This document shows positions 12,868 to 49,196 of a stretch of DNA of 64,000 nucleotides, in pieces; position 1 is the first letter of the stretch; each line of letters begins with the position of its first letter. Origin of the DNA: Halovenus sp. (GTDB taxonomy: Archaea; Halobacteriota; Halobacteria; Halobacteriales; Haloarculaceae). The position numbers were made by a program, and so were the translations under genes. The DNA is taken from contig JAZKTU010000001.1 in the NCBI GenBank assembly GCA_036625385.1, forward strand, positions 14,865 through 78,864. The letters are read 5' to 3'. The notes beneath the pieces were generated by a model. That model did not search any database. It was given only the letters and a program-made list of their open reading frames with translations, and was not told the origin of the DNA.

Positions 12868-13529
12868 ATGCCCGACAGACCCAGCATCTTAGTCCCGTTA
12901 CGTGTTCTCGAGGGGGAATCAATTCCGGAGGGTGTTCCCGAACTCCTTACGAACGCACACGTCGTCCTGCTTGGCTACCACGTCGTGCGAGACCAGACCG
13001 CGACCGATCAGGCGCGACGCCAGTTCGAAGACCAGGCCACCCGCCGTCTCAACGATTTCACGGCGATACTCGAACACGCGGGGGCGACAGTCGAATCCCA
13101 GCTCGTGTTCACCCACGATGGGCAGACAACGATCGACCGGATGACAGACGAGCATGACTGCCTCGCGGTACTGATTCCAAACGCAACGAGACCGCTGGAG
13201 AATGTCCTCGTCGCGGTCCGCGGGATCGTCGGCATCGATCGGTTTGTCCGCTTAGTTTCGGGGCTGTTCGCGCCGATCGACGTCGACGTAACCCTGTACC
13301 ACGTCGCTCGAGAGGACGAAACTGACGCCGACGTAGAGACGCTGCTCGAGAGATGATCGTCGAGACTTCCGACAACTACGACGCGACCGTCATGGGGGAA
13401 TCCGATCCACCAGTGACGACTTTCTTGTTCGGGATGACTGCGGACCAGATCGCCAGGCAGTTCCTGGGTCCGGTATTCGTGATCCAGCACGGGGGCCTGG
13501 ACGATACCGAGGAGACTGACAACGAGTGA
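12868..13529 (+). pseudogene. Universal stress protein (two USP domains), frameshifted near 13350
   Basis: ORF 12868-13356 (ILVPLRVLEGE, NVLVAVRG); the C-terminal half YDATVMGESDP...FLFG...FLGPVFVIQ continues in another frame to TGA 13527-13529. Confidence 0.75.
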
Positions 13530-13638
13530 TACGGACGGTTGTGATTATTTTCGGCAGGGACGTCCGATATACGGCGTATCAGCCCGCGAAACGTGTATGT
13601 TGTCACAGCAGAGCGGTAACGAGTCACAACCGTCGATA
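13530..13638. mobile_element. Family A palindromic mini-element, 109 bp, TGA duplication
   Basis: TGA|TACGGACGGTTGTGA...TCACAACCGTCGATA|TGA; 4 mismatches to 44636-44744. Confidence 0.9.
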
Positions 13639-13813
13639 TGATCCTCCAGCAGAGTGTGGGTAGACCGAGTACCGGCGCAGTACCTCGTTCCTCCGCATCC
13701 ACCGATCCGAACTGTCCCGATCAGGGGAACCCTCTGTGCTGCATTCGCGCTCCGTATTCACCACGGTCGCTGGAACGTCTCACCGATCGAGAATTTCAAC
13801 GAGGCCGATTTCC

Positions 13814-15187
13814 CTACTCCACGAGCGCCGCTTCCAGCAGTTCGAGGGGATGACGGATGTCGTACCCGGTGCCGTGTTCCATCTGCATCGCGCAGGTCGG
13901 ACACTCCGTCATGCCCACCTCGCCCGACGCGTCCTCCATGTGCTCGAACATCTCCTCGCCGATCTTCATCGACTTCTCGTACTTTTCCGCTTTCCAGCCG
14001 TAGGTGCCCGAGATGCCGGAACAGGACTCACCGACGTCCTCGATACCGACGCCGTCCAGGTCGCGGAACAGTTCGACAGCCTGCCGGTCCAGTCCCTGGT
14101 TGCGGGCGTGGCAGGGGGCGTGGTAGGCGAACTCCTCGGCGAGTCCGTCGTCGATCTCCGCCGCGTCGAGTGCGCCCTGCAGGTCCTCGTGGATGCGCAG
14201 GTACTCGACCGACTCGAAGGTGTTTGCCGCCACGTCGTCGATCCCCTCGATATCGAACAGTTCAGGGTACTCCTGGCGCAGCGCCATCGAACAGGACGTA
14301 CACGAGGCGATGGCGTCGTACCCCTGGTCGACGAGGTCCGCCATCGAGGAGACGTTGACCTCGGCGTGGCGGCGGGCATCGTCGAGCATCCCGTTTGCGA
14401 ACATCGGCGTCCCCGAACACTTCTGCTCGGGAACGACGACTTCGTAGCCGAAGTGCTCGAACACCCGGACCATCGCCCGCCCGACTTCCGGCGTGTTGTA
14501 GTTCGAGTAACAGCCGTGGAAGTACGCGACCTTCCTGTCCGCATCGACGGGGTCGCCGCGGCGCTCCCGGTTCGCCCGGGCACGCTCCCTCGACCCGGCT
14601 GCACCGCCTTCCGCTTGCCACCACTCGCGAAACGTCTCCGGCGCGAACGCGGGGAACTCGCGTTCACGGGTGACACCGAGCGTTTTCTCCATGACCCAGC
14701 GTGCCGGCCCGAAGTTCATGGCGACGTTCGCGAGCCTGGGGACCTTGCTGGCGAACCAGGCCGACAGCCGGTAGTTCGCGAGGATCCGGTTGCGCCAGTA
14801 TTTGAGCGAGGTTTTCGACATGTTCTCGGAGACGTACTCCCCGCGTGCGGTGTTGTGCATCTGGGAGAGCGGAACACCCGCCGGACAGGCGTTGTCACAC
14901 CGCATGCAGTTCGAGCATTCCATCACCGACTCGTCGATGTCGTAGTCGTCCTCGTTCTGTTTGAGACGCCACTGTTCCGGCCCCTGGAACTTCGGACCGG
15001 GGAACTCGTCGTCGACTTCCGCGACCGGACAGTTCGTATCACACGTCGAGCACTTGTAACAGGAGTCCGCGCCGGGGCGCAGGTCGAAGTCGTCGCTGTC
15101 CGGAAAGACGTCGACGGGCTCGAAGTCCTCGCCTGTGTTCGGTTCGACTGGGTCGAAGTCAGTGTCTGAGTGTTCTGCGTCGCTCAT
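13814..15187 (-). CDS. glpC: Anaerobic glycerol-3-phosphate dehydrogenase subunit C
   Basis: Two CxxCxxCxxxCP motifs, YFHGC, YHAPCH. Confidence 0.93.
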   Translation of the reverse strand: MSDAEHSDTDFDPVEPNTGEDFEPVDVFPDSDDFDLRPGADSCYKCSTCDTNCPVAEVDDEFPGPKFQGPEQWRLKQNEDDYDIDESVMECSNCMRCDNACPAGVPLSQMHNTARGEYVSENMSKTSLKYWRNRILANYRLSAWFASKVPRLANVAMNFGPARWVMEKTLGVTREREFPAFAPETFREWWQAEGGAAGSRERARANRERRGDPVDADRKVAYFHGCYSNYNTPEVGRAMVRVFEHFGYEVVVPEQKCSGTPMFANGMLDDARRHAEVNVSSMADLVDQGYDAIASCTSCSMALRQEYPELFDIEGIDDVAANTFESVEYLRIHEDLQGALDAAEIDDGLAEEFAYHAPCHARNQGLDRQAVELFRDLDGVGIEDVGESCSGISGTYGWKAEKYEKSMKIGEEMFEHMEDASGEVGMTECPTCAMQMEHGTGYDIRHPLELLEAALVE

Positions 15188-16458
15188 CGTGCCTCCTGTG
15201 CCGCATCCGTTCCTGCCGCGTAGCCTGTCGCTATCGAGACGCCGCTGCCCGACTTCTCCGCAGCGAAGTCGTAGCCGCCCAGCACTGACCCCGCGGCACG
15301 GAGGTTCTCGAACTCGACGCTCCCGTCAGGCCCGGTCGGGCGGAGCCGCGCGTCCGTCGTGACGCCAAAGCGGGCGAACTGGTGGTCGCCGAAGACGTCC
15401 CCGTCGAACCAGTCGTACCGGTCCTCGGCGTGGGGGACGTGACAGTCGAAGATTGGTTCGTAGACGCGACCGCGGTCCGATTCGACGCCCTTCCCGACCA
15501 GCCCACCCGTCGCGAGGACGTACTGGTCGGCACTGTTTGGAATCCGGGCACCGTTCTTCTCGACGAAGACCCGCTCGATACGGTCCTCGCCCGCGTACCC
15601 GGTCACGGGATTGCCGGTTTCGATGCTGGCGCCGGCCTCGTCGAGCGCCTCGAACAGGGTGTCTTCGAGCCGGAGACCCGGGAGGGACGGCGGTCCCATC
15701 GGAACCTCGAAGACGTCGGTACCGAGTTTCTCGCGCAGGACGGCCCGGACCGTCGCGGAGGCGTCGTCGCCGAGGATCGCCGGAAACCCGACGCGCTCCG
15801 CGCCGTGGAGTTCCTTGTTTACCCGTTCGGCGAGGGCGTCCCGAACCGGGCGGTCGCGGCCCCTGACGGGCACCTCGCCGTTCGTGTCGAGCAGTTTCGC
15901 GTAGCGGGTCACCTTCGCGTCGGCGCGCAGGTCGCCGGGAAACTGTATCGTGACCCCGCGAACGTCGAAGGGGACACCCGCTGCCTCGAGGTGTGCCGCG
16001 ACGTGCTCGGCGTCGAAATCGACCATCGACTCGAGGCCGACCAGCAGGACGTCGCGGTCGTCGCTGGCGAGACCAGCACTCGCACCCGCCGGGTAGCGTG
16101 CGGTCGGTTTCAGCGTCCCGCCGTGGGTCGGGAGGAGAGCGTTCGTCGCGGTGTGGGAGCCACAATAGTCCGGGGCGACGTCGTCGAACATCGTCATCGA
16201 CTCGCGGACGGTTTCGCGGCCGACAGTACGGTAGGGATGGGTCGACGGCAGTTCGGGAATGGCCTCGTAGGGGTCGGTCAGGGGCCCCTTCCCCTCGGGG
16301 GTGTATCCGAGGATATCGACCAGCCCGGACGCGTGCCGGAGGGTACTCTGCTTGTACGAAACGAGGCGCACGTCCGCACCCGCCCGGGCCGCAGCGAGGG
16401 CGCTCGTGAGTCCCGCGAGCCCGCCGCCGACGACCAGCACCTCGGATTCAATCGCCAT
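15184..16458 (-). CDS. glpB: Glycerol-3-phosphate dehydrogenase subunit B
   Basis: [25 protein letters not shown]. Confidence 0.93.
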
Positions 16459-18172
16459 CGAATGTCCCTCCGTCCGCGGCGACACCCGTCTGCCCCGACG
16501 CCGAGTCCTCCGACCGGCCACTGTCGAACGCTCCGAAGTCGATCGGGTCGCCGTCTGCCGGATCCTGGTCCCGGTTCTGGGTCGTCGCGTGGAGCGCGTA
16601 GTTCAACATGGCCTGCGAGAGCTGTTCACCCCACAGCGCGTGGCGCTGGCCCTTCCAGCGCTCCTGGAGGAGTTCGTCCCAGGCCTGCCTGGTCGTCGCC
16701 TCGTCGTAGGTGTCGTGGAGCTCGCTCGCCAGCCGGTGACAGCAAAAGCCGCCCTGGCAGTTGCCCATCGAGGCACGCGTTCGGATACGGACGGCGTTGA
16801 GGTCCGACCCCGACCCCTCGATCGCGTCCTGGACCTCCGCGCGGGTGACACCCTCACAGCCACACACCGTCGGGTTCGGCCCGTCGGTTTTCAGCACCTC
16901 GTCTGCCCGCGATCCGAGGCGCTCGACGCTCCGCCGACCGATCGGCGACTGGAGACCGAACTCGTCCATGTAATCACGCAGGACCGAGAAATCCTCGCTC
17001 CCGGGGAGGGGGACGTCGGCTGTCCGGCAGTCAGCATCGATACCGAACTTCTCGCAGACGTGGTCGCTGATCTCCTCGCCCATCATCCGGTAGGTCGTGA
17101 ACTTCCCGCCGACGATGCTGGTCATCCCCTCCAGTCCGTCGCGCTCCTCGTGGTCGAGCAGGAAGTAGTCCCGGGTGATGTCGGTCGGGTCGTCGCTCCC
17201 GACGTCCGGCGGTTCGTACAGCGGTCGAACACCCCAGAAGGAGCGGATCGTTCGGGCCTCCTCGAGCATCGGAACCAGCTCTTTGAGCGTGTCGATCATC
17301 ATGTCGACCTCCCACTGCTCTTCGGGGTAGTCCTCGGGGTCGTCGACCTCCTCGTCAGTCGTCCCGAGAATGGCGGTCGTCTCGTGGGGGACCACGATGT
17401 CGGCGTCACCCTTGGGTCGACAGCGGTTGATGACGGTGTCGACCTGCCGGATGTTCATGATGGTCATGACGCCTTTCGAGGGGCGTACCTCGATATCGAC
17501 GCCGACCATCTCGCCGATCCGACCGGCCCAGGCCCCGGTCGCGTTGACGACGTAGTCCGCCCTGATCTGTTCGGCCCCCCCTTCGGTCCCGTGGACGCGC
17601 TTGCCGGCGCCGGAGTCGTGCTCGACCTCGAGACCGACGACCTCCCCGTTCTCGACGAGCAGATCCGTCACCGTCGAGTGCGTCTCGATGCGCGCGCCGT
17701 GTTCCTCCGCGCTGGCGGCGTTGGCGACGACCAGGCGGAAGGGGTCGATGGCCCCGTCGGGGACCGATATCGCCTTGTCGATGTCCGTCGCCAGGTGGGG
17801 TTCCATGGCGCGGGCTTCCTCGGCAGAGACGACCTCCGCGGGGATACCACATTCCCGACAGCCGTCGAGTTTCTCCTGGAAGTACTCCTCCGAGTCCTCC
17901 GGCCGTTTGACGAACAAGCCGCCGGTCATCTCGACGCAGTGGGTCGCTATCTTCCTGAGAACGCGGTTCTCCTCGATACACTCGGTCGCACTTGCCTGGT
18001 CTGAGACGGCGTAGCGCCCACCACTGTGGAGCAGTCCGTGCATCCGACCGGTCGTCCCGTGCGTGAGGTTGCCCTGCTCGACGAGAGTGACGTCGAGCCC
18101 TCGCATCGAGAGATCCCTGGCGATCCCGATCCCGGTCGAACCGCCGCCGATAACGGCGATGTGTGGTACCAT
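16448..18172 (-). CDS. glpA: Glycerol-3-phosphate dehydrogenase subunit A
   Basis: [34 protein letters not shown]. Confidence 0.95.
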
Positions 18173-18757
18173 CTGTTCTCTTACGCGTTGTGAGGCGAAC
18201 CACTTTATTTTATCGACGGTGCGGATACTACAGTAAATCAAACTGTGGGCCCGACAGAGGCCAATTTCGTTCCGTACCGCCACTGGTCTGTGCTGCCGAC
18301 GGAACGCAAAAACACGAAGTATTTGACTCTTTCTCGGCAGTATAGACTGTATGTGTACTATTACACGCCATATACTGCAATTTGTTTTTACCCGAGTTTA
18401 TTTACTGTAATACCCAATATATAGATAAACTATATGCTCGGAGGTGATCTGCAGACGCTTGCTGTCTGTACTGACCGGTTACGCGAGTGGCGGGTGAGTC
18501 CAAGACATCGGAGAGAGTCGGTTCGCGATCGGGAAAGGTGCCGACACAGGGCGCGGGTCGGGCGTGACAAGACTGGCGGTACCAGGCGGAGCCGTGAAAA
18601 ATCGTACCCGCGATGGCGTAGCAAGAAGCGACACACGACAATCCAATCCGTCCCGGAGGAGATGTCGAACACCCGGGGGACGATGTGACCTGATGGCGGT
18701 CCCGGTCGATACCAGACTGACGCACGACGGATAAGCACACGATAACTTTATTCAAGG

Positions 18758-18773
18758 TACCCGATTAGGAGTA
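18758..18773. promoter_or_regulatory. Putative TrmB-type operator TACCC-N6-GAGTA upstream of glpK
   Basis: Near match to the motif, adjacent to AT-rich TTTTATT. Confidence 0.4.
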
Positions 18774-18854
18774 ACTTTTATTGTGATGTAGTATATTGTT
18801 TACTCTCAGGACGGTAGTAGCAGTAAATATACCGTCACACGGAGATTACAACAG

Positions 18855-20387
18855 ATGACAGAAACCTACGTCGGCGCAATCGACCAGGGGACGACCGGCA
18901 CTCGCTTCATGGTATTCGACCACAGCGGGCAGGCCGTCACAAAGGCATACAAGAAACACGAGCAGATCTACCCGGAACCCGGCTGGGTCGAGCACGACCC
19001 GATGGAGATCTGGGAAAACACCAGGGACGTCGTCACGCAGGCACTGGACAAGGAGAATATCGATCCCGAGCAGCTCGAGGCCATCGGGATCACCAACCAG
19101 CGTGAGACGACCATCGTCTGGGACAAGGAGACCGGCAAGCCCGTCTACAACGCCCTCGTCTGGCAGGACCGCCGGACCACCGACCGCGTCGAGGAAGTCG
19201 AAGCCGAAGACAAAGTCGAGTGGATCCGCGGCAAAACCGGCCTCGAATGCGACGCCTACTTCTCGGCCACCAAAGTCGAGTGGATCCTCGACAACGCGGA
19301 TCCGATCAAACTCCAGCGCATCCGGCCCGAGGACGTCCGCGACCGTGCGGAGGCCGGCGAGTTGCTGATGGGCACTATCGACTCGTGGGTGATATACAAA
19401 CTCACCGGCAACCACATCACGGAGATCTCGAACGCCTCGCGGACGATGCTCTACAACATCCACGACCTGGCCTGGGACCACGAACTCCTCGAGGAGTTCA
19501 ACGTCCCCGAAACCATGCTCCCCGAGGTCCGCCCGTCGGTCGACGAGGAGACCTACGGCTCCACCGATCCGGACGGCTTCCTGGGCGCGGAGGTGCCCGT
19601 CGCCGGCGCCCTGGGCGACCAGCAGGCGGCGCTGTTCGGCCAGACCTGCTTCGACGAAGGCGACGCCAAAAACACCTACGGCACCGGGGCGTTCTATTTG
19701 ATGAACACCGGCAACGACGCCGTCGAGTCCGAGAACGGCTTGCTTACCACCATCGGCTTCCAGGTGTCTGACGAACCGGTTCAGTACGCGCTGGAGGGGT
19801 CGATCTTCATCGCCGGCGCGGCCATCGAATGGCTCGAGGACGTCGAGCTCATCGACGACCCCACCGAGACAGCACGGCTGGCCCAGTCGATCGATTCGAC
19901 TGACGGCGTGTATATGGTCCCGGCATTCACCGGGCTGGGCGTGCCCTACTGGGATGGGCGGGCACGCGGAACCATCGTCGGGATGACCCGCGGGACCCGC
20001 CGGGAACACATCGTCCGGGCGACGCTCGAGGCCATCGCCTACCAGACCCGCGACGTCGCCGAAGCCATGGAGGCCGACTCCGGCATCGAAACGACGACGC
20101 TGCGGGTCGACGGCGGCGCCGTCAAGAACAACTTCCTCTGCCAACTCCAGTCGGACATCATCCAGACGGACATCGCCCGCCCCGAAGTCGACGAGACCAC
20201 CGCGCTGGGGTCGGCCTACGCCGCCGGCCTCGCCGTTGGCTACTGGGATAACATCAACAAGCTCCGATCGAACTGGCAGGTCGACCGCGAGTTCGAGCCG
20301 GAGATGGAAAGTAAGGAAGCCGACGGGATGTACGACCGCTGGGACGACGCCGTCGAGAGATCACTCGACTGGGCAACGGAGGAATAA
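18855..20387 (+). CDS. glpK: Glycerol kinase (copy 1)
   Basis: AIDQGTTGTR, GITNQRET, GDQQAALFGQ, KNTYGTG, ETTALG. Confidence 0.95.
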   Translation: MTETYVGAIDQGTTGTRFMVFDHSGQAVTKAYKKHEQIYPEPGWVEHDPMEIWENTRDVVTQALDKENIDPEQLEAIGITNQRETTIVWDKETGKPVYNALVWQDRRTTDRVEEVEAEDKVEWIRGKTGLECDAYFSATKVEWILDNADPIKLQRIRPEDVRDRAEAGELLMGTIDSWVIYKLTGNHITEISNASRTMLYNIHDLAWDHELLEEFNVPETMLPEVRPSVDEETYGSTDPDGFLGAEVPVAGALGDQQAALFGQTCFDEGDAKNTYGTGAFYLMNTGNDAVESENGLLTTIGFQVSDEPVQYALEGSIFIAGAAIEWLEDVELIDDPTETARLAQSIDSTDGVYMVPAFTGLGVPYWDGRARGTIVGMTRGTRREHIVRATLEAIAYQTRDVAEAMEADSGIETTTLRVDGGAVKNNFLCQLQSDIIQTDIARPEVDETTALGSAYAAGLAVGYWDNINKLRSNWQVDREFEPEMESKEADGMYDRWDDAVERSLDWATEE

Positions 20388-20389
20388 CC

Positions 20390-21538: not shown

Positions 21539-21788
21539 AGGGATCCGCTCTCCCCGCTGAACCGTTCACGAACCACACACACTCGAACAGCAAGTCTACT
21601 GATAAACCCGGCCCGTGCAGTCGGCGACGGGTACTGAGAACCGCGGTGTCCCCCTTCACGAACGGACTGCAAAGCAGCAGACACAACCGGCAATCCGACC
21701 ATGCGTGACAGCGAAAGTACACGACGGGTAACCGCGGTCCTTTTTATCATGTAGCTAGAACCACCGATAACGAACACCCAGATCCGAT

Positions 21789-22967: not shown

Positions 22968-23017
22968 ACGCAGCGATCCACCGAAGCTCATAATGTGCTC
23001 ACCGTCGAAACGTGTGT

Positions 23018-23479
23018 GTGAGCATCACTGCGGGCGACCGGGTAACGCTCGATTACGTCGGGCGCTTCACGGACGGAACGGTGTTTGCAACCTCACAGGC
23101 TGACGTCGCCGGAGAACACGACCTGGTCGGGGATCCGGACGGCGTCTCCCCGCTCTCGTTTACCGTGGGCAACGGCGAGGTTATCCGGGGGCTCGACGAG
23201 GCCGTCGTCGGGATGACACCCGGGGAGAGCGAGACAGTGACAGTCCCGCCAGCGGACGCGTACGGGGAGTACGAGGAGGACCGCGTCCGGGAGTACGACC
23301 CCGAGACGTTCGAGGCGATGGTCGGCCAACCGCCGGAAATCGGACTCCACGTCGAGGCACAGCAAGGGCTACACGGCGACGTCACCGCCATCGCCCCGGA
23401 GGCGGTCGAGGTCGATTTCAATCACGAACTGGCGGGAAAGACGCTCGTCTTCGAGATAGACGTACTTGACGTCCAGTAG
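23018..23479 (+). CDS. FKBP-type peptidyl-prolyl isomerase (SlyD-like)
   Basis: DYVGRFTDGTVFATS, PPADAYG, VDFNHELAGKTLVF. Confidence 0.92.
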   Translation: MSITAGDRVTLDYVGRFTDGTVFATSQADVAGEHDLVGDPDGVSPLSFTVGNGEVIRGLDEAVVGMTPGESETVTVPPADAYGEYEEDRVREYDPETFEAMVGQPPEIGLHVEAQQGLHGDVTAIAPEAVEVDFNHELAGKTLVFEIDVLDVQ

Positions 23480-25242: not shown

Positions 25243-25327
25243 TACGGACGGTTGTGACTCGTTGCTGCCGTCAGCGTCCGCTACCGAGGGTCGCGACGAT
25301 CCAGGGTACCGGATATCCCGACAGCGT
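25243..25327. mobile_element. Family A element, left arm only
   Basis: TGA|TACGGACGGTTGTGACTC; no matching right arm before the next gene. Confidence 0.6.
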
Positions 25328-32424: not shown

Positions 32425-32533
32425 TACGGATTGGTGTGATTTGTTACCGAGACGTTGAAACAGTGTGGCGGTTTCAGACTCCCGGACGCCGATACCTGGG
32501 CGGCACTGCCGAAAAGAGTCACAACAATCCGTA
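32425..32533. mobile_element. Family A element, 109 bp, TGA duplication (left TGA = gfcR stop)
   Basis: TGA|TACGGATTGGTGTGA...TCACAACAATCCGTA|TGA. Confidence 0.9.
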
Positions 32534-37817: not shown

Positions 37818-37964
37818 GACTGAAAGACCGCCACGCCAGGATGCAACGCCGAAACCGGTGCTCGAGGTCACCGCGCAAGACAAGGTCGGCCCCCACACCC
37901 ACAGGACCGTAGCGGCGGCAGCCACCTCGGTATAAGTTTGTGACCCCGGTGGGACAGCACAGGG

Positions 37965-39502: not shown

Positions 39503-39611
39503 GTGTTGGTGTCCTCGACTCGGGCGAAAAAGCCTGCCGGTCCGCAAAGCGACACCTGGCGAGGAATGTGGACGCCCGAAAGTTCATGCCCGACGGTCTG
39601 CAGGTCACTGT

Positions 39612-40805: not shown

Positions 40806-40869
40806 CGGGGAGAGACGCGACGGCAGCAACTCGCGGTGACGGCACCGACCGAACAGGGGTGGGGGCCTG

Positions 40870-42672
40870 ATGTGCGGTATCATCGGTTGCGTGGGTCGTG
40901 GCGGGGAGACACTCGAGACACTGCTACACGGCCTCGGGAAACTGGAGTATCGCGGGTACGACTCGGCTGGCGTCGCGCTGGTCGGCGACGGACTCGCGGT
41001 CTGCAAAACCGCGGGCGAGATCGAGGACCTCCGCGCGGCCGTGGCGGAGCGTGACCTCACGGGGACGGTCGGTATCGGCCACACGCGCTGGAGTACACAC
41101 GGCCCACCCACGGACGGGAACGCCCATCCGCACGTCGACTGTGACGGGGCGGTCGCTGTCGTCCACAACGGCATCATCGAAAACTACCAGTCGCTGCGCG
41201 ACCGCCTCGTCACCGCCGGCCACACGTTCACCAGCGACACCGACACCGAAGTCGTGCCACACCTCGTCGAAGATGCCCTGGCCGACGGGATGGAGGCCGA
41301 AGCCGCGTTCCACGCGGCTGTCGACGAGTTGGCAGGCAGTTTCGCGCTCGCCTGCGTCGTCGAGGGGACCGAGCAAGTGTTCACCACGCGGCAGGACTCC
41401 CCGCTCGTCCTGGGGTTGGGCGAGGCGGGAGGCAACGGCCCCCGGCCCCTTTACGTCGCAAGCGACGTGCCCGCGTTCCGGGATTTCACCGACAGCGTAG
41501 TCTACCTGGCGGACGGCGAGCGCGCGCGGTTGAACGGCGGCTGGACCGTCACCGACACGGCGGGCGACCCGGTGGAGACGACAGTCGAGACAGTGACGTG
41601 GGACCCGGAGGAGACTGGCAAGAGCGGGTACGACCACTTCATGCTCAAGGAGATCTACGAGCAACCCCGGGCGCTCCGGCAGTGTCTCCAGGGCCGGGTC
41701 GACGAACTCGGGCGGGCAGTCGATATCGACGATATCGGCGACCTCTCGCCGACGGGCGTCCAGTTTGTCGCCTGTGGCACGTCCTATCACGCCGCAGTGT
41801 ACGGTGCCCACCTGTTTCGCGCCGCCGGCGTCCCGGCACAGGCGTTTCTGGCAAGCGAGTACGCCACTGCGGTGCCGCCGATCGGTGACGCGCTCGTAGT
41901 CGGGATCACCCAGAGCGGCGAGACGGCGGACACGCTGTCGGCGCTTCGCGAGGCCGGGAGCCGCGGAGCGCGCACACTTACCGTGACCAACACCGTCGGG
42001 TCGACAGCCGCCAGGGAGTGTGACCACGCACTCTACATCCGGGCCGGTCCCGAGATCGGCGTCGCGGCCACGAAGACATTCGCCAGCCAGTTGGTCGCGC
42101 TGAACCTGCTCGCCGGCGCGACGACCGGCGACTTGCCACACGAGTTGCTCGGAAGTCTGCGGGACCTCCCCGGGAACGTGCAGGCCGTCCTCGACAACTC
42201 GAACGCGGCGGCGATCGCCGAAGAGTACCGCGACGCGCGGGCGTACTTTTTTATCGGGCGACGCTACCAGTATCCCGTCGCACTCGAGGGCGCACTCAAA
42301 CTCAAGGAGATCAGCTACGAGCACGCCGAGGGGTTCGCCGCGGGCGAACTCAAACACGGCCCGCTCGCGCTCGTCGATGGCGAAACACCCGTGTTCGCCT
42401 CCGTCATCGGCGACGACGAGGTGGCGGCCCGGACCGTCGGCAACGTCAAGGAAGTCGAGGCGCGGAACGCGCCCGTCGTCGCGGTGACCGACGGGCGCAG
42501 TGACGCGGAGCGCTACGCCGACCAAGTGCTCGAAGTGCCCGAGACACACCCACGGGCGGCAGCTGTACTCACGAACGTCCAGCTCCAGCTCGTCGCCTAC
42601 CACATCGCCGATATGCTCGACCGGCCGATCGACAAGCCGCGCAATCTCGCGAAAAGCGTCACGGTGGAGTGA
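40870..42672 (+). CDS. glmS: Glutamine-fructose-6-phosphate transaminase
   Basis: MCGIIG, LEYRGYDSAG, GHTRW, KPRNLAKSVTVE. Confidence 0.96.
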   Translation: MCGIIGCVGRGGETLETLLHGLGKLEYRGYDSAGVALVGDGLAVCKTAGEIEDLRAAVAERDLTGTVGIGHTRWSTHGPPTDGNAHPHVDCDGAVAVVHNGIIENYQSLRDRLVTAGHTFTSDTDTEVVPHLVEDALADGMEAEAAFHAAVDELAGSFALACVVEGTEQVFTTRQDSPLVLGLGEAGGNGPRPLYVASDVPAFRDFTDSVVYLADGERARLNGGWTVTDTAGDPVETTVETVTWDPEETGKSGYDHFMLKEIYEQPRALRQCLQGRVDELGRAVDIDDIGDLSPTGVQFVACGTSYHAAVYGAHLFRAAGVPAQAFLASEYATAVPPIGDALVVGITQSGETADTLSALREAGSRGARTLTVTNTVGSTAARECDHALYIRAGPEIGVAATKTFASQLVALNLLAGATTGDLPHELLGSLRDLPGNVQAVLDNSNAAAIAEEYRDARAYFFIGRRYQYPVALEGALKLKEISYEHAEGFAAGELKHGPLALVDGETPVFASVIGDDEVAARTVGNVKEVEARNAPVVAVTDGRSDAERYADQVLEVPETHPRAAAVLTNVQLQLVAYHIADMLDRPIDKPRNLAKSVTVE

Positions 42673-42758
42673 GGTCACCGGGCGAAGCCGACAGACAGCT
42701 CCGGGACGGAGGGTGAAATCAGCGAAGAGTCGGTGAGTTCCACCCGGACCGCCAGGGA

Positions 42759-43469
42759 TTACCAGTCAATGACGGACTTGTCCCGCCAGAACAGCCCGCC
42801 CGGACTGCCGGGCCGGAATCGCGCCAGCCACACCGGCGTCTCGGCACCCTCGGACGGACTGCGGGGTGCGCCCGGCCCGCCCATGTCGGTCCGAACCCAC
42901 CCCGGGCTCGCCGCGTTCGCGAGCAGCCCATCGTCGCCGTACTCGGCGTCCAGATACGCGGTGAATGCACCCAGCCCGGCCTTCGTGACGCGGTAGGCGG
43001 GATACGAGCCGCCCGTCCCGTGCGTAAACTGGCCGAGGTTCGAGGAGAGGTTCACGACCCGGCCACCCTCGCGCTCGCGGAGCAGAGGGACGAACTGCTG
43101 GGTGACGAGTATCGGTCCGCGGAGGTTGACCGCGACCGTCTCATCGAGCGTGTCGACGTCCATGTCGTGGAGGGTGTCGGCGCGCCGGAAGATGCCGGCG
43201 TTGTTGACGAGGATGTCGAGTCGGCCAGCCTCGGACTCGATGCGTGCCGCCGCCTCGCGAGCGTGGGCGCGTTCCGTCACGTCAAGTTCGACCGGATGCT
43301 GGTCCGGGGCGGTGATGTCGTCAGTTTCCCTGGCACCGGCATACACTGTCGCGCCGAGGTCGGCGAGTTGGGCGGCGATCGCTGCCCCGATACCACGGGT
43401 CGCGCCGGTGACCAGCGCAACCTGGTCTGTCAGCGAGTCGTACAGCGCAACGTCTGCTTCGTCTGCCAT
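42759..43469 (-). CDS. Short-chain dehydrogenase/reductase
   Basis: TGATRGIG, NNAG, YRVTK, PGWVRTDMGG. Confidence 0.9.
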   Translation of the reverse strand: MADEADVALYDSLTDQVALVTGATRGIGAAIAAQLADLGATVYAGARETDDITAPDQHPVELDVTERAHAREAAARIESEAGRLDILVNNAGIFRRADTLHDMDVDTLDETVAVNLRGPILVTQQFVPLLREREGGRVVNLSSNLGQFTHGTGGSYPAYRVTKAGLGAFTAYLDAEYGDDGLLANAASPGWVRTDMGGPGAPRSPSEGAETPVWLARFRPGSPGGLFWRDKSVIDW

Positions 43470-43561
43470 GGGTCGCGTTCGGCTTCCAGCGGTTTAGCTC
43501 TCCCGCGACCGCCACTACCGGGTTGCAAAAGGAGACGGTGGAGCGAAAGGCGGGAGGCTCG

Positions 43562-43721
43562 TACGGACTGTGGCGAGTCATTCTGCCGGCTGTACCATTG
43601 TGAACGGATCCGACACCGGGGGTGTCGAATATCTGTCCGAACGGACAGCTGACAGTATCAGTGCCGTTGCGCCCGCACCCAATCGTGCGGTCGTACCGGT
43701 ACATAGTCGCAACAGTCCGTA
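43562..43721. mobile_element. Family A element (shortened) carrying a nested family C element; right TCA = aglF stop
   Basis: TCG|TACGGACTGTGGCGA...TCGCAACAGTCCGTA|TCA. Confidence 0.8.
43581..43657. mobile_element. Family C element, 77 bp, TCA duplication, nested in A
   Basis: TCA|TTCTGCCGGCTGT...ACAGCTGACAGTA|TCA; central CGACACC-GGG-GGTGTCG. Confidence 0.8.
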
Positions 43722-44468
43722 TCACTCGGACGACTCGGCGCTCGCCGCCGCCTCCTCGGCACCGCGGAGCAAGCGCTCGGCCTTGTCGCGGTCCTCGGGG
43801 TAGCCGACGTCGACGCGCCAGCCGTCCATCCGGATGGCGTCGATCGTCCGCCCGGAGTGAAGGAGGAGGTCGATAGCGTCGCTGATTTCGTACTCGCCGC
43901 GGTTTGAGGGTTGCACGAGATGGCAGGCGTGAAAGATTGCCGGCGTGAACGTGTAGAAGCCGGTCATGACGAGATTCGACGGCGGATCGTCGGGTTTCTC
44001 GACGACTTCGACGATCTCGCCGTACTTGTTGGTGTCACAGACACCGTACCGGCCGGCTTCCTCCCAGGGAACTTCCTCGACGAGGAACGCCGCGTCGGCA
44101 CGCTGTTCGCGCTGGCGGTTGATGACGTCCTCGAGGTTCGCCTGGAAGATGTTGTCCCCCAGCAACAGCATGAACTCGTCGTCGATATACTCCTCGACAG
44201 TCAGCAGGGCGTGGGCGAGTCCGTTCTGCTCACGCTGGTGGGCGTACGTGATGGGCGTCCCCTCGAACTCGTCGCCGTAGTGCTCGATGATGACCTCCTT
44301 CTTGTAGCCGACGACGACGAACAACTCGTCGGCGTCCAGTTCGATCAGTTGCTCGAAACAGTGCGTGAGCAAGGGTTTCCCGTCGACTTCTACCATTCCC
44401 TTCGGTTTGGCCTCGGTGAGCGGCCGCAGCCGCGTTCCCTCGCCGGCAGCGAGTACGACAGCCTTCAT
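43722..44468 (-). CDS. aglF: UTP-glucose-1-phosphate uridylyltransferase AglF
   Basis: MKAVVLAAGEGTRLRPLT, KPKGMVEV, LGDNIF, VEKPDDPPSNL. Confidence 0.88.
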   Translation of the reverse strand: MKAVVLAAGEGTRLRPLTEAKPKGMVEVDGKPLLTHCFEQLIELDADELFVVVGYKKEVIIEHYGDEFEGTPITYAHQREQNGLAHALLTVEEYIDDEFMLLLGDNIFQANLEDVINRQREQRADAAFLVEEVPWEEAGRYGVCDTNKYGEIVEVVEKPDDPPSNLVMTGFYTFTPAIFHACHLVQPSNRGEYEISDAIDLLLHSGRTIDAIRMDGWRVDVGYPEDRDKAERLLRGAEEAAASAESSE

Positions 44469-44575
44469 ACCCCCTCTCCTCGGCCCGCGCCTAAAAACAC
44501 TTTGTAGGAGACGGTCTCCCCGGACAGTCATTAGACGGGGACTCTCGAACCGGGACGAGGCCGTAGACCGGTTCA

Positions 44576-44796
44576 TACGGTCGTGCGTGATTCTTTACCG
44601 CCATGGCGGGACAAAACGGGATTTTCAGGGTCTGATACGGACGGTTGTGATTATTTTCGGCAGGGACGTCCGATATACGGCGCATCAGCCCGCGAAACGT
44701 GTATGTTGTCACAGCAGAGCGGTAAAGAGTCACAACCGTCCGTATGAAACGTGGAAATACGCGATCCGGTCGTGAAAATAATCGCAACAATCCGTA
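44576..44796. mobile_element. Family A outer element (109 bp after removing the insert), TCA duplication
   Basis: TCA|TACGGTCGTGCGTGA...TCGCAACAATCCGTA|TCA. Confidence 0.85.
44636..44744. mobile_element. Family A inner element, 109 bp, TGA duplication
   Basis: TGA|TACGGACGGTTGTGA...TCACAACCGTCCGTA|TGA, perfect 15-bp TIR. Confidence 0.9.
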
Positions 44797-44828
44797 TCAC
44801 ACGATGCCGACGGTGGCCACGAGAAGGC

Positions 44829-45179
44829 TCACGAACAGGAGGACGGCAAGCGCAATGCCCGCAACTCGCTGGCGTACGACCGTGCGGGGCCGGTGAACCG
44901 CCCCGTCGTGGCGACGATGCCCCGCTTCGGGCCGTCGTAGTCGTAGGTTGCAACCGCCGAGTAGAGTTTCTGGACAACCGGTCGCCCGACCGAATCGGTG
45001 TGCTTGCACTCCACGACGACGGCGCGACGCTCCTCGCCCACCTGTTCCTCCATCGTGATGTCGCGCCCCACGTCGGCGACGCGCTCCGCTTTCCTGACGT
45101 TCTCGTACCCGAGTTTGCGGAACACGTCCCCCATCACGTCCTCGAACTCGAACCCCGAGAGTTCGTCGAGAACCGTCAT
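44829..45179 (-). pseudogene. Mrr-like restriction endonuclease domain, probably truncated
   Basis: GFEFED, DVGRDI, VVECKH, VGRPVVQKL, TTGRFT (PD-(D/E)xK); ends abruptly next to the repeat nest. Confidence 0.7.
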
Positions 45180-45285
45180 CTCCCGGGAGTGTGCGCGGGC
45201 GACGAGCGACGGACGGAACAGCGAACTATCAGGAGCTACCACCGGAGCACCGCACGACGGCAGGAGTACCTGCCCGGGATCGGTC

Positions 45286-45435
45286 TCACTCCCGTGTAAG
45301 ACCCCGGTTCCGGAGCGCCTCCGTCTCTCCACAGGTGTCGCACTCGCCGGGACGGGTCTCCGCCTCGGTTATCGCCCCACACGCGAGACACTCGTAGGTC
45401 GGCGGGTTGGCCGGATTGTGGTCGATCTCTTTCAT
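45286..45435 (-). CDS. Small rubrerythrin-like/CPxCG zinc-finger protein (49 aa)
   Basis: YECLACG...PGECDTCG...LRNRG. Confidence 0.7.
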   Translation of the reverse strand: MKEIDHNPANPPTYECLACGAITEAETRPGECDTCGETEALRNRGLTRE

Positions 45436-45681
45436 GCCATCTACTACGTCGTGTCAAGACATAACGTTTGCCATGGAGGCCGGGACGTGTCGGCGGACCC
45501 CCTGCGTCATGGGAGTTGCCGCAGGCCGGCTGCGAGGAGAACGGAAAGACACGAGTGCGGGAGAGCAAGAAGACAGAAGGGCAGTATGAGACTGCCGCTG
45601 ATAAGCCCATGGGCAATGTCGACCGCACCGTTGGAGGAATCGAGGACGGTGAGCGACGGACCGGAGGGGCAGGAAGCGTCT

Positions 45682-46764
45682 CTACTCCCCGCCGTCGGCG
45701 GCGACAGTCCGCTCGGTTGTCGGTGCGAGAGGTTCGTCGAGTCCCATCGCCTCGTCGGTCGTCGTGATGCTCTCGTCCTGTGCTTTCCTGCCCAGTGTAG
45801 CACGGATAGCGTCCACATTCTCAGGGACGACATCGGACTCCTGGTGGATGGCCTGGAACAGGTAGAGGTCGCTTGCTCCGTCGCAGCCGGGGACGCCCTC
45901 GACAGTGATCGACTCGCCCCAGATGCAGTTCTCCCAGATATCCGCCCGCGGCCGGCCGGCGTCCTGTGCGAGTTCCTTGATCGCGCCCGCGCCGTCGAGA
46001 CCGAGCCACTCGGGGATGACGAACGTCCGGGACTCGTCCGCAAGCAGGTCCCGGACGTCCGCTGCCCTGGGTTCGGATTCGAGCGTGACGTTGATACTAT
46101 GCATGTGCATCAACGTCGCGGGGACCTTGAGCCCGAGCGTGTCGATAGAGAGTTCCGGGAAGATCGTCGTGACGTCGGGACCGTGGTGAGAAGGCAGGGA
46201 GATGGGGTTCGGAAGGATGTCGTTGATCGGGCCGCGGCTGCTCTGTGCGGGGTCACCGCCGCGCCTGACGAGCGTCGCGCGGACCTTCTCGACGCCGTAG
46301 GCCTCCTGCAGCGGCGCGACGAGACGGGAGAGGCCAGTCGTGTTACAGGAGACGACCCGGACGAGGTCGGCACCCTCGACGGTGTCGTAGTTGGCACGAG
46401 CGTTGAAACTCGCGTCGACGACGTCGGCGTCTTCCCCACCCTGGAGGATGGCAGGCGTGTCGTGTTCGCGGTACATGTCGGCGTTTTCCGCACCGATGCC
46501 GGACGGACAGGCGTCGACCACGATATCGCTCGCAGCGACCAGATCCTCGACGTCGCCCGCAAGCTGGATGCCGGCCTCCGCGAAGCGTGGCTTTCGCTTC
46601 TCGACAGCGGCGTAGAGGTCGAAACCTTTCTCGACGGCGCTCTGTGCCTCGAAGTTCGGGCGGGTTTTGGCGACGCCGACGACAGCCATATCGGGCTGCT
46701 CTCGGACGGCGTCCGCGACCCGTTTGCCGATGGTTCCGTAGCCGTTGATGCCTACCTGAATCAT
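45682..46764 (-). CDS. gap: Archaeal type II glyceraldehyde-3-phosphate dehydrogenase
   Basis: [38 protein letters not shown]. Confidence 0.93.
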
Positions 46765-46940
46765 TGTCTGAGCGTTCGATACTGGCCGTCAAAGGCGTTG
46801 TGATTGGCTCAGATCGTGTGTGGAGTCCCGACTTGCCGGGCACGACGGTCGGACTGCGGGGCCACACCCCGGCTGGGACCGCTGAAGCGAGATTTTTATG
46901 CTCGAGAACTGAGTTATACCGATAAATCGTCCGGTGACGT

Positions 46941-47087
46941 GTGTACCGTCGACAGTTCCTGGGGCTGGTCGGTGGGACCGGCCTCGTGGCCACGGCGGGT
47001 TGCTCGGACGTCATCGGTGGAGACGGCTCGTCACCCAGTCTCGACCCGACGAGGTGGCCGCCGTCGTTTCGGATCCGCCGCCCCAAC
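46941..47087 (+). pseudogene. 5' remnant of a Tat-exported lipoprotein gene
   Basis: MYRRQFL twin-arginine motif and TAGC lipobox; interrupted by the repeat nest at 47088. Confidence 0.6.
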
Positions 47088-47112
47088 TCATACGGATTGT
47101 TGTGGTTCTTTA

Positions 47113-47191
47113 TACTGTCGGACGGAAGTCATGATATTCTGCTCGTTCCACGTGGGGCGAGTGAAAGTATCAACAGTTCCGTCCGACAGTA
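47113..47191. mobile_element. Family B element, 79 bp, TA duplication
   Basis: Identical (inverted) to 10996-11074. Confidence 0.9.
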
Positions 47192-47223
47192 TACCGCGAC
47201 GTTGAGACAGTGTGGTGGTTTCA

Positions 47224-47332
47224 TAGTGATTATTGCGATTGGTTTCGTGACCACGTCGCGTGAACAGCAGTTGCGCGGTCCGAAACACCCGAACTGTGAC
47301 GGCCCGGCGGTAAAGAGTCGCACTAATCACTA
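47224..47332. mobile_element. Family A variant, 109 bp, TCA duplication
   Basis: TCA|TAGTGATTATTGCGA...TCGCACTAATCACTA|TCA. Confidence 0.85.
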
Positions 47333-47485
47333 TCAGACCGTGATATAGACCCCGGGGTTCGCTGTGCGCACTATGATCCGACCCGCGAGACTGACCGGAC
47401 CGAATGGGTAATGTCGACGCCCACACCCTCTCCCCGCGAGGTCCCGGCAGTAACGCCTTTACACGCGCCGTCCTACCGACGCCAC

Positions 47486-48439
47486 ATGAACAGTTCGCTG
47501 CGCACGCCCGCACAGACTGCCGTCGAGCAGTGCATGGGACTTCGCCCCGGCGAGTCCTGTCTCGTGGTCACCGACGACGAGCGGGAAGCGATCGGGAAAG
47601 CACTCGACAGCGTCGCCCGCGAGACGACCGACGACGTGGCGACGATCCGCTATCCGCCGGGCGACCAGCACGGTGCGGAACCGCCGAGACCCGTCTCGAC
47701 GGCGATGACCGGCGCGGACGTCGTGCTCGCGCCGACGACGAAAAGTCTGAGTCACACCACTGCACGCATCGAGGCCACCGACGCGGGTGCCCGGATGGCG
47801 ACGCTCCCCGGCATCACCGACGATGTCTTTCTGATGGGGCTCGACGCCGACTACGACCGCATCGCCGACGAGTGTCGACGGTTGCTCGGGCAGGTCGGCG
47901 ACGCCGAGGAGATCCGGGTGATGTCACCACAGGGGACCGACATCACGTTCCGTCCCGGCACGCGCGAGTGGCTAGAAGACACCGGTATCAACCACGACCC
48001 CGGCGCGTTCTCGAATCTCCCGGCGGGCGAGGTGTTCGTCAGCCCCGAGACCGGCGACGGCACAGTCGTCGTCGACGGGACGATGATGCCCCACGGAAAG
48101 CTCGACGGCGACGTCGTCGAATTCACCGTCGCGGACGGCGCCGTGACACATATCGCGGACGACGCCGTCCGCGCAGAGGTCGAGGAAGCAGCCGAAACGG
48201 CTGGCGACGGGGCGTACAACCTCGCGGAGTTGGGCATCGGCACGAACGTCGCGGTGACCGATCTTGTCGGGTCGGTGTTGCTCGACGAGAAAGCCGGGGG
48301 AACGGTCCACATCGCGATCGGCGACGACCACGGGATCGGCGGCGACGTGGAGGTACCGATCCACCTCGACGGGATTCTCACGGAACCGACAGTGTACGCC
48401 GACGGCGAGGAAGTGACCCTCCCGAGCGCCGGGGAGTAG
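47486..48439 (+). CDS. Aminopeptidase (M29-like)
   Basis: SLSHT, NLPAGEV, AELGIGTN, DEKAGGTVHIAIG, HLDG. Confidence 0.88.
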   Translation: MNSSLRTPAQTAVEQCMGLRPGESCLVVTDDEREAIGKALDSVARETTDDVATIRYPPGDQHGAEPPRPVSTAMTGADVVLAPTTKSLSHTTARIEATDAGARMATLPGITDDVFLMGLDADYDRIADECRRLLGQVGDAEEIRVMSPQGTDITFRPGTREWLEDTGINHDPGAFSNLPAGEVFVSPETGDGTVVVDGTMMPHGKLDGDVVEFTVADGAVTHIADDAVRAEVEEAAETAGDGAYNLAELGIGTNVAVTDLVGSVLLDEKAGGTVHIAIGDDHGIGGDVEVPIHLDGILTEPTVYADGEEVTLPSAGE

Positions 48440-48465
48440 CGGCTGGGATGCGGTGTGGGACCGAC

Positions 48466-48542
48466 CGCGTCGGGGCTGTCCGTCCGGAGAGAGATCCGAC
48501 ACCCGGGTGTCGAGTGTGTTCACCAGGTTACAGCCGGCAGTC
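48466..48542. mobile_element. Family C element with degenerate left arm
   Basis: GGCTGT...CGACACCCGGGTGTCG...ACAGCCGGCAGTC|TCA, abutting the family A copy. Confidence 0.65.
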
Positions 48543-48545
48543 TCA

Positions 48546-48653
48546 TACGGACTGTTGTGACTCGGTCCTGCCAGGCCGACACAGATCTCGCGAGTCGGGT
48601 TTAAATCGACGGTTCTGTCGGGGCGGTGTCGAAAACAATCACGACAGTCCGTA
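48546..48653. mobile_element. Family A element, 108 bp, TCA duplication (right TCA = stop of the HTH-CBS gene)
   Basis: TCA|TACGGACTGTTGTGA...TCACGACAGTCCGTA|TCA. Confidence 0.9.
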
Positions 48654-49196
48654 TCAGGAGATGTGCCGGGCGACGTCGGCTTCGGTGATGATGCCGACCG
48701 TCTTCCCGTCCTCGACGACCAGAACGGCGTCGTTGTGGTCGAGGTGGGCGTCGACGGCGTCGATGGTTGCGTCCGGTTCGACAGTCGTCACGGCCTCGCC
48801 CATCACCTCCGCGACCGGGAGGTCACCGACGTTCTCCCCGGTGCGCTGGCGGATATCCGACATGCCGATGATCCCTTGCGGGGTGCCGTCGCGCAACACG
48901 GGCACCTGCGAATAGCTCTTTTCGTCCATCAGTTCGGTCGTCTCGCGGACACTTGCATCGGGTGCGACACTGATGACGGGCGAGTGCATCAGGTCGGCAG
49001 CCCGGAGCAACCCGCCTTCGGCCTCCTGAAGGGCGTTGACGATGCGCCGAAGCGTCGACAGCCGGGGGTCGACATCACCGCCCTCGATGCGGGCGATGAG
49101 TGGCTGTGAGACGTCTGCCCGCTCCGCCAGGTCACTCTGTGTGAGACCGAGGTCGTTCCGGCGCTCGCGCAAGTCTTCTGGCGTCGGGAGTTCCAT
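48654..49196 (-). CDS. HTH-CBS domain transcriptional regulator
   Basis: LTQSDLAERADVSQPLIARIE, DPRLSTL, paired CBS domains. Confidence 0.9.
   Translation of the reverse strand: MELPTPEDLRERRNDLGLTQSDLAERADVSQPLIARIEGGDVDPRLSTLRRIVNALQEAEGGLLRAADLMHSPVISVAPDASVRETTELMDEKSYSQVPVLRDGTPQGIIGMSDIRQRTGENVGDLPVAEVMGEAVTTVEPDATIDAVDAHLDHNDAVLVVEDGKTVGIITEADVARHIS

What the first reader, a model, noticed from the sequence alone, without database searches (positions are those of the whole stretch)
13527..48656. Family A: fixed-length (108-109 bp) palindromic elements with TGA duplication that often sit on stop codons
Seen: complete copies at 13530-13638, 32425-32533, 44576-44796 (109 bp after removing the insert), 44636-44744, 47224-47332 and 48546-48653 are all 108-109 bp. 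Each is bracketed by a direct TGA or TCA repeat. A shortened copy (43562-43721, TCG/TCA) and partial copies (25243, 47091, about 49830) also occur. The interiors are mostly unalignable, except 13530 vs 44636 (4 mismatches) and 32425 vs 47091. The duplicated TGA is the stop codon of the usp remnant (13527), gfcR (32422), aglF (43722) and the HTH-CBS gene (48654), and probably of UPF0212 (49851). Inference: a non-autonomous mobile element whose target duplication preserves the stop and places a hairpin in the 3' UTR. No cognate transposase is in the window. 3-bp TNA-type duplications are known for some IS5-family subgroups, but the link is untested.
Basis: partly seen in the sequence, partly recalled or inferred. 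Interest (0 to 1): 0.85.

Follow-up and report, generated by a model that had tools for sequence, protein, structure and literature searches.

The report
IS630 mini-transposons duplicating TGA stop codons
These repeats are hundreds of tiny gene-less mobile elements in a salt-loving archaeon whose ends match a branch of IS630 transposons flanked by a three-base duplication (mostly TGA) instead of the textbook TA; that transposase likely moves them, and copies landing on a TGA stop codon would leave the protein intact, which likely helps explain why about 40% sit there.

Summary
Confirmed and explained. The window copies belong to a genome-wide family: 238 paired elements, mostly 108-109 bp (132) or 80 bp (51); 182 have identical 3-bp flanks, nearly all TGA or TCA. 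Empty-site comparison inside the genome gives a 3-bp duplication in 13 of 14 cases. The same sizes and flanks recur in 7 Halobacteriales families and in hypersaline metagenomes. The partner is IS630, not IS5. A haloarchaeal IS630 clade (1120-1150 bp) has matching ends (up to 20 of 22 bases) and a T-N-A duplication in 21 of 24 copies, never TA. TA and T-N-A types interleave on the transposase tree and coexist on single plasmids, so duplication length changed more than once. 68 of 170 copies sit on stop codons and 3 in genes, but the 40 bp after stops are about as favoured: a 3'-end survival pattern, not stop recognition. Against: this clade is missing from the 85%-complete assembly and from most element-bearing genomes; no orthologous strain polymorphism or transposition assay. 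Interiors are diverged homologues, not unalignable. A new variant of a known kind.

The parts
13530..13638 (.). 109-bp element (subfamily 4), TGA/TGA flanks; left TGA ends a 59-codon frame (13353-13529); right terminus slightly decayed
25243..25266 (+). lone left end after TGA; no partner end found
32425..32533 (.). 109-bp element (subfamily 1), TGA/TGA; left TGA (32422) is the gfcR stop
43562..43721 (.). 80-bp-class element, TCG/TCA flanks; right TCA is the aglF stop (minus strand)
43581..43657 (.). 77-bp sister-family element (78-bp class) nested in the above, TCA duplicated
44576..44796 (.). 109-bp element (closest to subfamily 2), TCA/TCA, split by a nested copy
44636..44744 (.). 109-bp element (subfamily 4) nested in the above with TGA duplicated; direct read-out of the 3-bp duplication
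47091..47223 (+). left half of a subfamily-1 element after TCA, interrupted twice, right half lost
47113..47191 (.). 79-bp sister-family element with a 2-bp TA duplication, nested in the above
47224..47332 (.). 109-bp element (subfamily 3, TAGTG ends), TCA/TCA, inserted at the internal TCA of the 47091 host
48546..48653 (.). 108-bp element, TCA/TCA; right TCA (48654) is the stop of the HTH-CBS gene (minus strand)
49775..49850 (.). decayed right part of a family member abutting the stop (49851) of the DUF555 gene; a decayed 78-bp-class element lies at 49700-49774

Best explanation
Family A is a set of miniature inverted-repeat elements (about 80 and 108-109 bp) flanked by a 3-bp T-N-A duplication, likely moved in trans by the transposase of a haloarchaeal IS630 clade that has matching ends and the same duplication. 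Shown: the anatomy, the 3-bp duplication, the target consensus G-W-C / TGA / G-W-C, the end match, and the duplication made by the full-length relatives. Inferred from IS630 biochemistry (ISY100, PMC2170065): cut-and-paste, with the 3' ends joined at a 3-nt instead of a 2-nt stagger across T-G-A, and host repair duplicating the triplet. Inferred: insertions in coding sequence or promoters are removed by selection, while those on a TGA stop (65% of called stops) or just behind it leave the protein unchanged and persist. Copies carry internal TGA/TCA sites, so they nest.
For: 182 of 238 paired elements have identical 3-bp flanks; 1-, 2-, 4-, 5- and 6-bp repeats occur in 3, 2, 0, 0, 0. Of 196 elements tested, 14 had an empty-site homologue elsewhere in the genome and 13 fit removal of exactly 3 bp; sister TA-type families fit 2 bp in 5 of 5. 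IS630 'clade III' (32 tree rows, 24 with both ends): 21 of 24 flanked by an identical T-N-A triplet, none by TA; canonical clade I: 35 of 42 TA, none 3-bp. Clade III gives the strictly best end match for 15 of 18 ends of nine subfamily consensuses, up to 20 of 22 positions, shuffle p<0.05 for 17 of 18. Internal control: the 78-bp T-N-A family and the 79-bp TA family both match clade II, the latter best to a TA-duplicating member (18 of 22). Intact clade III copies exist, with two frames and an A7C slip site (e.g. L186, L194, L193, L191), annotated IS630 in RefSeq. 3 of 170 insertions lie in genes against about 62% expected.
Against: No clade III transposase or end in this assembly (85% complete). 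Only 2 of 26 element-bearing genomes have a clear clade III copy, plus one fragment, against 16 of 300 in an unselected sample; the copies in G383 and G160 are broken, and G383's eight 80-bp copies have TAGTG ends while its IS copies have TACGG ends. For 3 of 18 ends another clade matches as well or better, and the pools differ in size (53, 15, 32 ends). One nested copy fits a 2-bp or a 3-bp duplication equally. No orthologous filled/empty pair of strains was found. No transposition was assayed.
Confidence: 0.8

Rival explanations
1. The elements are moved mainly by the clade II T-N-A IS630 transposase that this genome does carry (G000:C176, L133), through relaxed end recognition.
For: L133 is intact, 1069 bp, flanked by TGA/TGA, and is the only full IS630 in the assembly. 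Clade II T-N-A copies also occur in element-bearing genomes G160, G115 and G369.
Against: Family A ends match clade II at 8-15 of 22 positions against 12-20 for clade III; clade II matches the 78-bp sister family instead (15-16 of 22). G350 carries the elements and showed neither T-N-A clade with this query.
Confidence: 0.1
2. The transposase actively seeks gene ends (stop codon plus termination machinery), or the hairpins are kept because they act as terminators or RNA stabilisers. This can hold on top of the best explanation.
For: Density per 1000 context-weighted sites: 25 at stops, 18 within 40 bp after stops, 7-8 elsewhere between genes. 68 of 167 non-coding insertions are at stops against 18-19% expected (p about 1e-10). 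A congener (G013) has a different family member on the same HTH-CBS stop.
Against: Stops and the next 40 bp do not differ (68 of 84, expected 75%, p=0.26). Depletion upstream of starts (7 of 83 against 23%) shows selection at work. Element orientation at stops is even (22 against 19). Five of six congeners lack an element at that stop. Gene calls are my own and miss some genes, which inflates 'intergenic' sites.
Confidence: 0.15
3. Partner is an IS5-family transposase of the IS1031/ISL2 type, or PIF/Harbinger-like.
For: Those groups make 3-bp T-N-A or T-W-A duplications (recalled, not from a call).
Against: No PF13586 or PF13359 match in the genome; the three PF01609 hits are fragments without such ends. 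Long elements with these ends encode IS630.
Confidence: 0.02
4. Structure-guided movement of a single-stranded hairpin (HUH/REPIN-like or recombinase), the sequence of the arms being free so long as they pair.
For: Positions 1-15 of the two arms are complementary in 83-99% of copies although subfamilies differ there, more symmetric than the IS ends; 19 paired changes against 3.4 expected.
Against: 18 of those 19 paired changes come from one heterogeneous subfamily and are not independent. No PF01797 match in the genome. The arm variants (TACGG, TAGTG, TAGGG) are mirrored in IS630 clade III ends. A staggered duplication at a near-symmetric target is typical of DDE transposases (established knowledge).
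Confidence: 0.03

Closest known systems
IS630-linked bacterial MITEs, e.g. RUP of Streptococcus pneumoniae (PMC3049150, passages read)
   Same: 107 bp, terminal inverted repeats like IS630-Spn1, about 110 copies, target duplication, over-represented between convergent genes.
   Different: Here archaeal, GC-rich, two size classes, at least nine interior lineages, and a 3-bp TGA duplication. That RUP duplicates TA is recalled, not read.
IS630/Tc1/mariner elements, ISY100 (PMC2170065, passages read)
   Same: DDE transposase, short inverted repeats, cut-and-paste with a staggered target cut; two frames joined at a slip site.
   Different: ISY100 and IS630 duplicate TA (34 of 39 in vitro). Clade III and part of clade II duplicate T-N-A; clade III also has a 17-residue insert between the second D and the E and K-L-P-E-L-N in place of Y-S-P-E-L-N.
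Fot/Fot-like pogo transposons (PMC7386202, passages read)
   Same: Members of the IS630-Tc1-mariner group with a 3-bp duplication (TAA), with TA and TAA types in one family.
   Different: Eukaryotic, TAA rather than TGA; shows that non-TA duplications are not unprecedented in the superfamily.
Haloquadratum walsbyi short mobile repeats SMR-A (about 110 bp) and HqIRS41 (80 bp) (PMC3119063, passages and section 31 read; supplements unreadable)
   Same: Haloarchaeal, same two sizes, prominent inverted ends, several families without mutual similarity, nested in other mobile elements, mobiliser called enigmatic.
   Different: Described as making no target duplication and inserting into palindromes of IS605-type elements. 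Family A has a clear 3-bp duplication and an IS partner. Sequences could not be compared.
MITEHsal1-14 and ISH2 of Halobacterium (PMC7002104, passages read)
   Same: Haloarchaeal MITEs assigned to transposons by their ends.
   Different: In the table read they are assigned to the ISH4, ISH8, ISH9 and ISH11 classes, none to ISH16; MITEHsal2 is about 400 bp with a 7-bp duplication.

Membership tests
MITE (non-autonomous inverted-repeat element) | short, non-coding, many dispersed copies | tested here: met
   238 paired elements, 26.9 kb (0.9% of the assembly)
MITE (non-autonomous inverted-repeat element) | terminal inverted repeats and target-site duplication | tested here: met
MITE (non-autonomous inverted-repeat element) | ends homologous to a transposase-encoding IS with the same duplication length | tested here: met
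   IS630 clade III
MITE (non-autonomous inverted-repeat element) | presence/absence polymorphism at orthologous sites | tested here: inconclusive
   paralogous empty sites 13 of 14; 5 of 6 congeners empty at one stop but flanks diverged; no strain-level alleles
MITE (non-autonomous inverted-repeat element) | mobilised in trans by the partner transposase | not testable with these tools
   needs an assay; co-occurrence weak
IS630 family (the partner IS) | IS630-type DDE transposase | tested here: met
   PF13358 107 bits; NF033545 89.7 bits for the C-terminal frame alone, cut-off 100 for the whole protein; D-D-E seen in alignment; RefSeq 'IS630 family transposase'
IS630 family (the partner IS) | about 1.1 kb, short imperfect inverted repeats, often two frames with a -1 slip site | tested here: met
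   1120-1150 bp, A7C near position 537
IS630 family (the partner IS) | TA dinucleotide duplication | tested here: not met
   0 of 24 TA, 21 of 24 T-N-A; hence filed as a variant that works like IS630, not as a canonical TA-duplicating member
IS5 family, IS1031/ISL2 groups | 3-bp T-N-A duplication (recalled) | tested here: met
IS5 family, IS1031/ISL2 groups | IS5-type transposase bounded by matching ends | tested here: not met
Haloquadratum SMR-A / SMR-B | about 110 or 80 bp with prominent inverted ends | tested here: met
   PMC3119063
Haloquadratum SMR-A / SMR-B | no target duplication; ends unrelated to any transposon | tested here: not met
Haloquadratum SMR-A / SMR-B | sequence identity with HqIRS40-43, HqIRS55 | not testable with these tools
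   supplements are .doc files that could not be read
Rfam RNA family | match at gathering score | tested here: not met
   0 matches in the window

The most novel reading that the evidence does not exclude
In haloarchaea the hallmark TA duplication of IS630 has been swapped for T-N-A more than once. Because TGA is the main stop codon, this gave the transposons and their 80- and 109-bp passengers a large set of harmless landing sites and let them expand to hundreds of copies. Near-sister transposases on one plasmid (about 74% DNA identity, one TA, one T-N-A) make the determinants of target stagger directly mappable, and the fixed 80/109-bp lengths reflect a geometric rule of the transpososome. 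Some 'enigmatic' Haloquadratum short repeats would be such IS630 passengers.
Probability: 0.35. Interest if true: 0.75.

Novelty: new variant of a known kind. Interest (0 to 1): 0.5.

Why it matters
IS630 is described as duplicating TA. A prokaryotic branch that duplicates T-N-A, with repeated switches and TA/T-N-A pairs in the same cell, is a ready test system for how DDE transposases set the target stagger. It assigns a likely mobiliser to one of the most abundant short repeats in some haloarchaeal genomes (1.3% of this assembly with the sister families), offers a lead on the unexplained Haloquadratum short repeats, and warns that these hairpins at gene ends are mobile DNA, not conserved RNAs. 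The stop-codon link is a neat but mostly passive consequence.

Tried and rejected
Rfam: nothing. IS5 (PF13586), ISL2/Harbinger (PF13359) and HUH (PF01797) transposases: none in the genome; two integrase-like hits are not bounded by the ends. Long end-bounded stretches: C67 1031 bp holds no transposase; L047 holds an IS1341-type tnpB insertion and L089 is two separate copies. Reading the terminal TA as the duplication: rejected, since empty sites hold one TGA and none of the TA. A single-frame IS630-like group with similar first bases: rejected as partner, it lacks T-N-A flanks. Read sets: no RNA holder listed; contigs of 5 DNA runs in two layings showed no joint skipping an element among the rows shown, but cover was thin. 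Viral contigs: no clade III relative. Plasmid and phage collections: one 31-bp hit, no annotation. Common protein signature for T-N-A: none across both clades; a one-residue gap after the first D marks the four clade II T-N-A proteins only. Literature: five searches combining IS630, haloarchaea/archaea, MITE, TGA and 3-bp duplication and three on haloarchaeal repeats gave no description of this family or of a 3-bp IS630 clade; ISfinder itself, Filee et al. 2007 and most subscription papers were not available, so absence from print is not established.
Full report
Observation. The window is G000:C120:14865-78864 of a 2.98-Mb, 213-contig haloarchaeal assembly, 85% complete. A 24-bp end profile seeded on 14 window ends converged on 591 sites in the genome, against 0 in a shuffled genome. 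Pairing 614 ends gave 238 elements and 138 lone ends: 104 of 109 bp, 28 of 108 bp, 51 of 80 bp; most others are nests or decayed. No Rfam family matches the window.

Duplication and target. 182 of 238 elements have identical 3-bp flanks, nearly all TGA/TGA or TCA/TCA; other repeat lengths occur in 0-3. Flanks give a near-symmetric target, G-W-C, TGA, G-W-C. For 196 elements of 76-111 bp I rebuilt the empty site with 0-5 bases removed and searched the genome: 14 had a contiguous homologue, mostly because they sit in other repeats; 13 fit exactly 3 bases, one (ATA/TAT flanks) fits 2 or 3. The terminal TA therefore belongs to the element. These are paralogous empty sites. At the orthologous HTH-CBS stop, 5 of 6 congeners examined (6 of 26 with a match) have no element and one (G013) has a different, roughly 99-bp member. 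Contigs of public runs gave no strain-level empty allele, with thin cover.

Internal structure. The 196 elements fall into 20 clusters, nine with five or more members; the largest (38 copies, 80 bp) has 26 copies identical to its consensus, so part of the spread is recent. The 107-109-bp types align almost without gaps, one end carrying TTTACC and the other TTTTCG; interiors of seven consensuses are 44% identical against 26% for shuffles. So they are diverged homologues that kept their length. The same genome holds sister families: 78 bp with T-N-A flanks (91), 79 bp (31) and 109 bp (11) with TA flanks. In the window, 43562-43721 and 47091-47332 are nests of these.

Distribution. A strict end pattern hit 21 of 400 other Halobacteriales genomes, in 7 of 16 families, with no hit for the reversed control; it under-counts, since a looser one finds 154, 136, 92, 24 and 16 ends in five chosen genomes. 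In 128 genome and metagenome loci, 95 paired elements of 77-110 bp were found, 86 with TGA/TGA or TCA/TCA flanks and lengths of 79-80 or 107-110 bp; many are repeats across samples (53 distinct).

The partner. The genome has no IS5 (PF13586), ISL2/Harbinger (PF13359) or HUH (PF01797) match but one intact IS630 (L133, 1069 bp) whose TA-terminated ends are flanked by TGA/TGA. Collecting IS630 loci and building a tree of 94 catalytic frames (99 loci hit, 5 too short; 12 loci left out as duplicates or remnants; quick IQ-TREE) gave three groups. Clade I, about 1055 bp: 35 of 42 TA, none 3-bp. Clade III, 1120-1150 bp: 24 of 32 have both ends, 21 of these have an identical T-N-A triplet, none TA; two pairs lie in duplicated regions, so 19 of 22 are independent. 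Its ends begin TACGG, TAGTG or TAGGG and carry TTTACC at the same offset as family A. Over 22 positions beyond the TA, clade III is the strictly best match for 15 of 18 family A consensus ends (up to 20 of 22), ties once and loses twice. Clade II, about 1070 bp, is mixed; its ends match the 78-bp and 79-bp sister families, the TA family best matching a TA member. Many clade III copies are intact, with two frames and an A7C slip site, and RefSeq names them IS630. None of the 120 listed homologues carries an ISfinder-style name.

Switching. On a 26-protein careful tree the 16 T-N-A rows do not form one clade (log-likelihood 80.5 lower, p-AU 3e-5; the group was named after I saw the first tree, and L185 is a long branch). 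TA members sit at the base of clade III (L175) and within clade II. On plasmid NZ_CP073368.1 six copies of one clade II element all have TA and three copies of a relative about 74% identical all have T-N-A; NZ_CP034941.1 also has both. The duplication length is thus a property of the element, not the host. The direction of change is not fixed, as the tree has no outgroup. No residue separates all T-N-A from all TA proteins.

Against the assignment. Clade III is not in this assembly, by protein or DNA search. Only 2 of 26 element-bearing genomes hold a clear copy, both broken, about the unselected rate of 16 of 300. Part of this may be assembly loss: 107 of 120 listed clade III homologues are known only from contigs under 5 kb, many about the size of the IS. 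But G350 (2 contigs) and G259 (10 contigs) have the elements without it. MITEs without a resident partner are also noted in Haloquadratum (PMC3119063, passage). The link rests on end similarity and shared duplication, not on an assay.

Stop codons. With my own gene calls (2951 genes; 1852 of 2846 stops are TGA), 68 of 170 outermost elements with perfect TGA/TCA flanks are on stops, 3 in genes, 99 elsewhere. Weighting sites by a target profile trained on non-stop insertions, 62% would be in genes and 18-19% of non-coding ones on stops (observed 41%). Per 1000 weighted sites: 25 on stops, 18 in the next 40 bp, 7-8 in other intergenic DNA, 4 just upstream of starts, 0.16 in genes; stops and the next 40 bp do not differ (p=0.26). 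The 78-bp family shows 24 of 91 on stops. The simplest reading is selection against gene and promoter hits; a mild preference for gene ends is not excluded. RUP is likewise over-represented between convergent genes (PMC3049150, passage).

Mechanism. ISY100 is excised by its transposase and joined at 2-bp staggered positions at TA, repaired to a TA duplication (PMC2170065, passages). I infer the same route with a 3-nt stagger across T-G-A. Fot elements with TAA duplications are a eukaryotic precedent (PMC7386202, passages). Why the lengths cluster at 80 and 109 bp, and why MITE arms are more symmetric than the IS ends, is unexplained.

Literature and verdict. Eight searches found no account of this family or of a 3-bp IS630 clade; passages of a 2026 archaeal IS survey hold no mention of target sites (PMC13343696). 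An automated survey reports up to 251 MITEs in Haloarculaceae genomes (bioRxiv 10.1101/2024.01.18.576219, passages), so copies may be listed there; its supplements and those of PMC3119063 were closed and bear on novelty, as does ISfinder. Five earlier notes of this scan describe the same kind of element in other genomes, four of them naming IS630 (read after my tree); they are not independent evidence. Verdict: real, an IS630-type MITE system with a non-canonical T-N-A duplication; a new variant of a known kind, interest 0.5.

Noticed in passing
G000:C176 about 224-1292 (L133): Intact IS630 (1069 bp, TGA/TGA flanks, A7G slip site); likely partner of the 78-bp family, whose ends match clade II.
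   Followed up: partly
window 10996-11074 and 47113-47191; 31 copies in the genome: 79-bp family with TA duplication and near-identical ends in all copies; best match is a TA-duplicating clade II IS630.
   Followed up: partly
window 12695-12771, 43581-43657, 49700-49774; 91 copies in the genome: 78-bp family with T-N-A duplication; 24 of 91 on stop codons. A decayed copy seems to lie at about 48470-48540.
   Followed up: partly
G000:C4, C32, C42, C127, C128, C178, C184, C189: A second 109-bp family with TA duplication and different ends; partner not resolved; one copy interrupts an IS630 pseudogene on C128.
   Followed up: partly
L143, L152, L159, L288-L291, L293, L295: A single-frame IS630-like group (about 370 aa, weak PF13358) sits between the arms of flanking inverted repeats, as if inserted into hairpin loops. 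This fits the description of Haloquadratum SMR-A targeting palindromes; untested.
   Followed up: no
L261 (G013): A different family member sits on the same HTH-CBS stop as window 48546: a shared old insertion or a repeat hit on one site.
   Followed up: partly
L047 878-2523: IS1341-type tnpB element (438 aa) inserted inside a 109-bp family A copy.
   Followed up: yes
G000:C67 6968-7998: 1031-bp stretch bounded by family A ends with TGA/TGA flanks and holding an AT-richer gene with a Tat/lipoprotein-like N-terminus; possibly cargo between two ends.
   Followed up: no
G000:C2 15354-15599, C8, C10, C30, C160, C173 and others: Family A copies expanded by an internal tandem unit of about 30-45 bp that recurs across copies; nature not examined.
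   Followed up: no
L133, L183, L219, L254 against L216, L184, L195: The clade II T-N-A transposases lack one residue shortly after the first catalytic D, where the TA types have it; a lead for the stagger determinant, absent from clade III.
   Followed up: no
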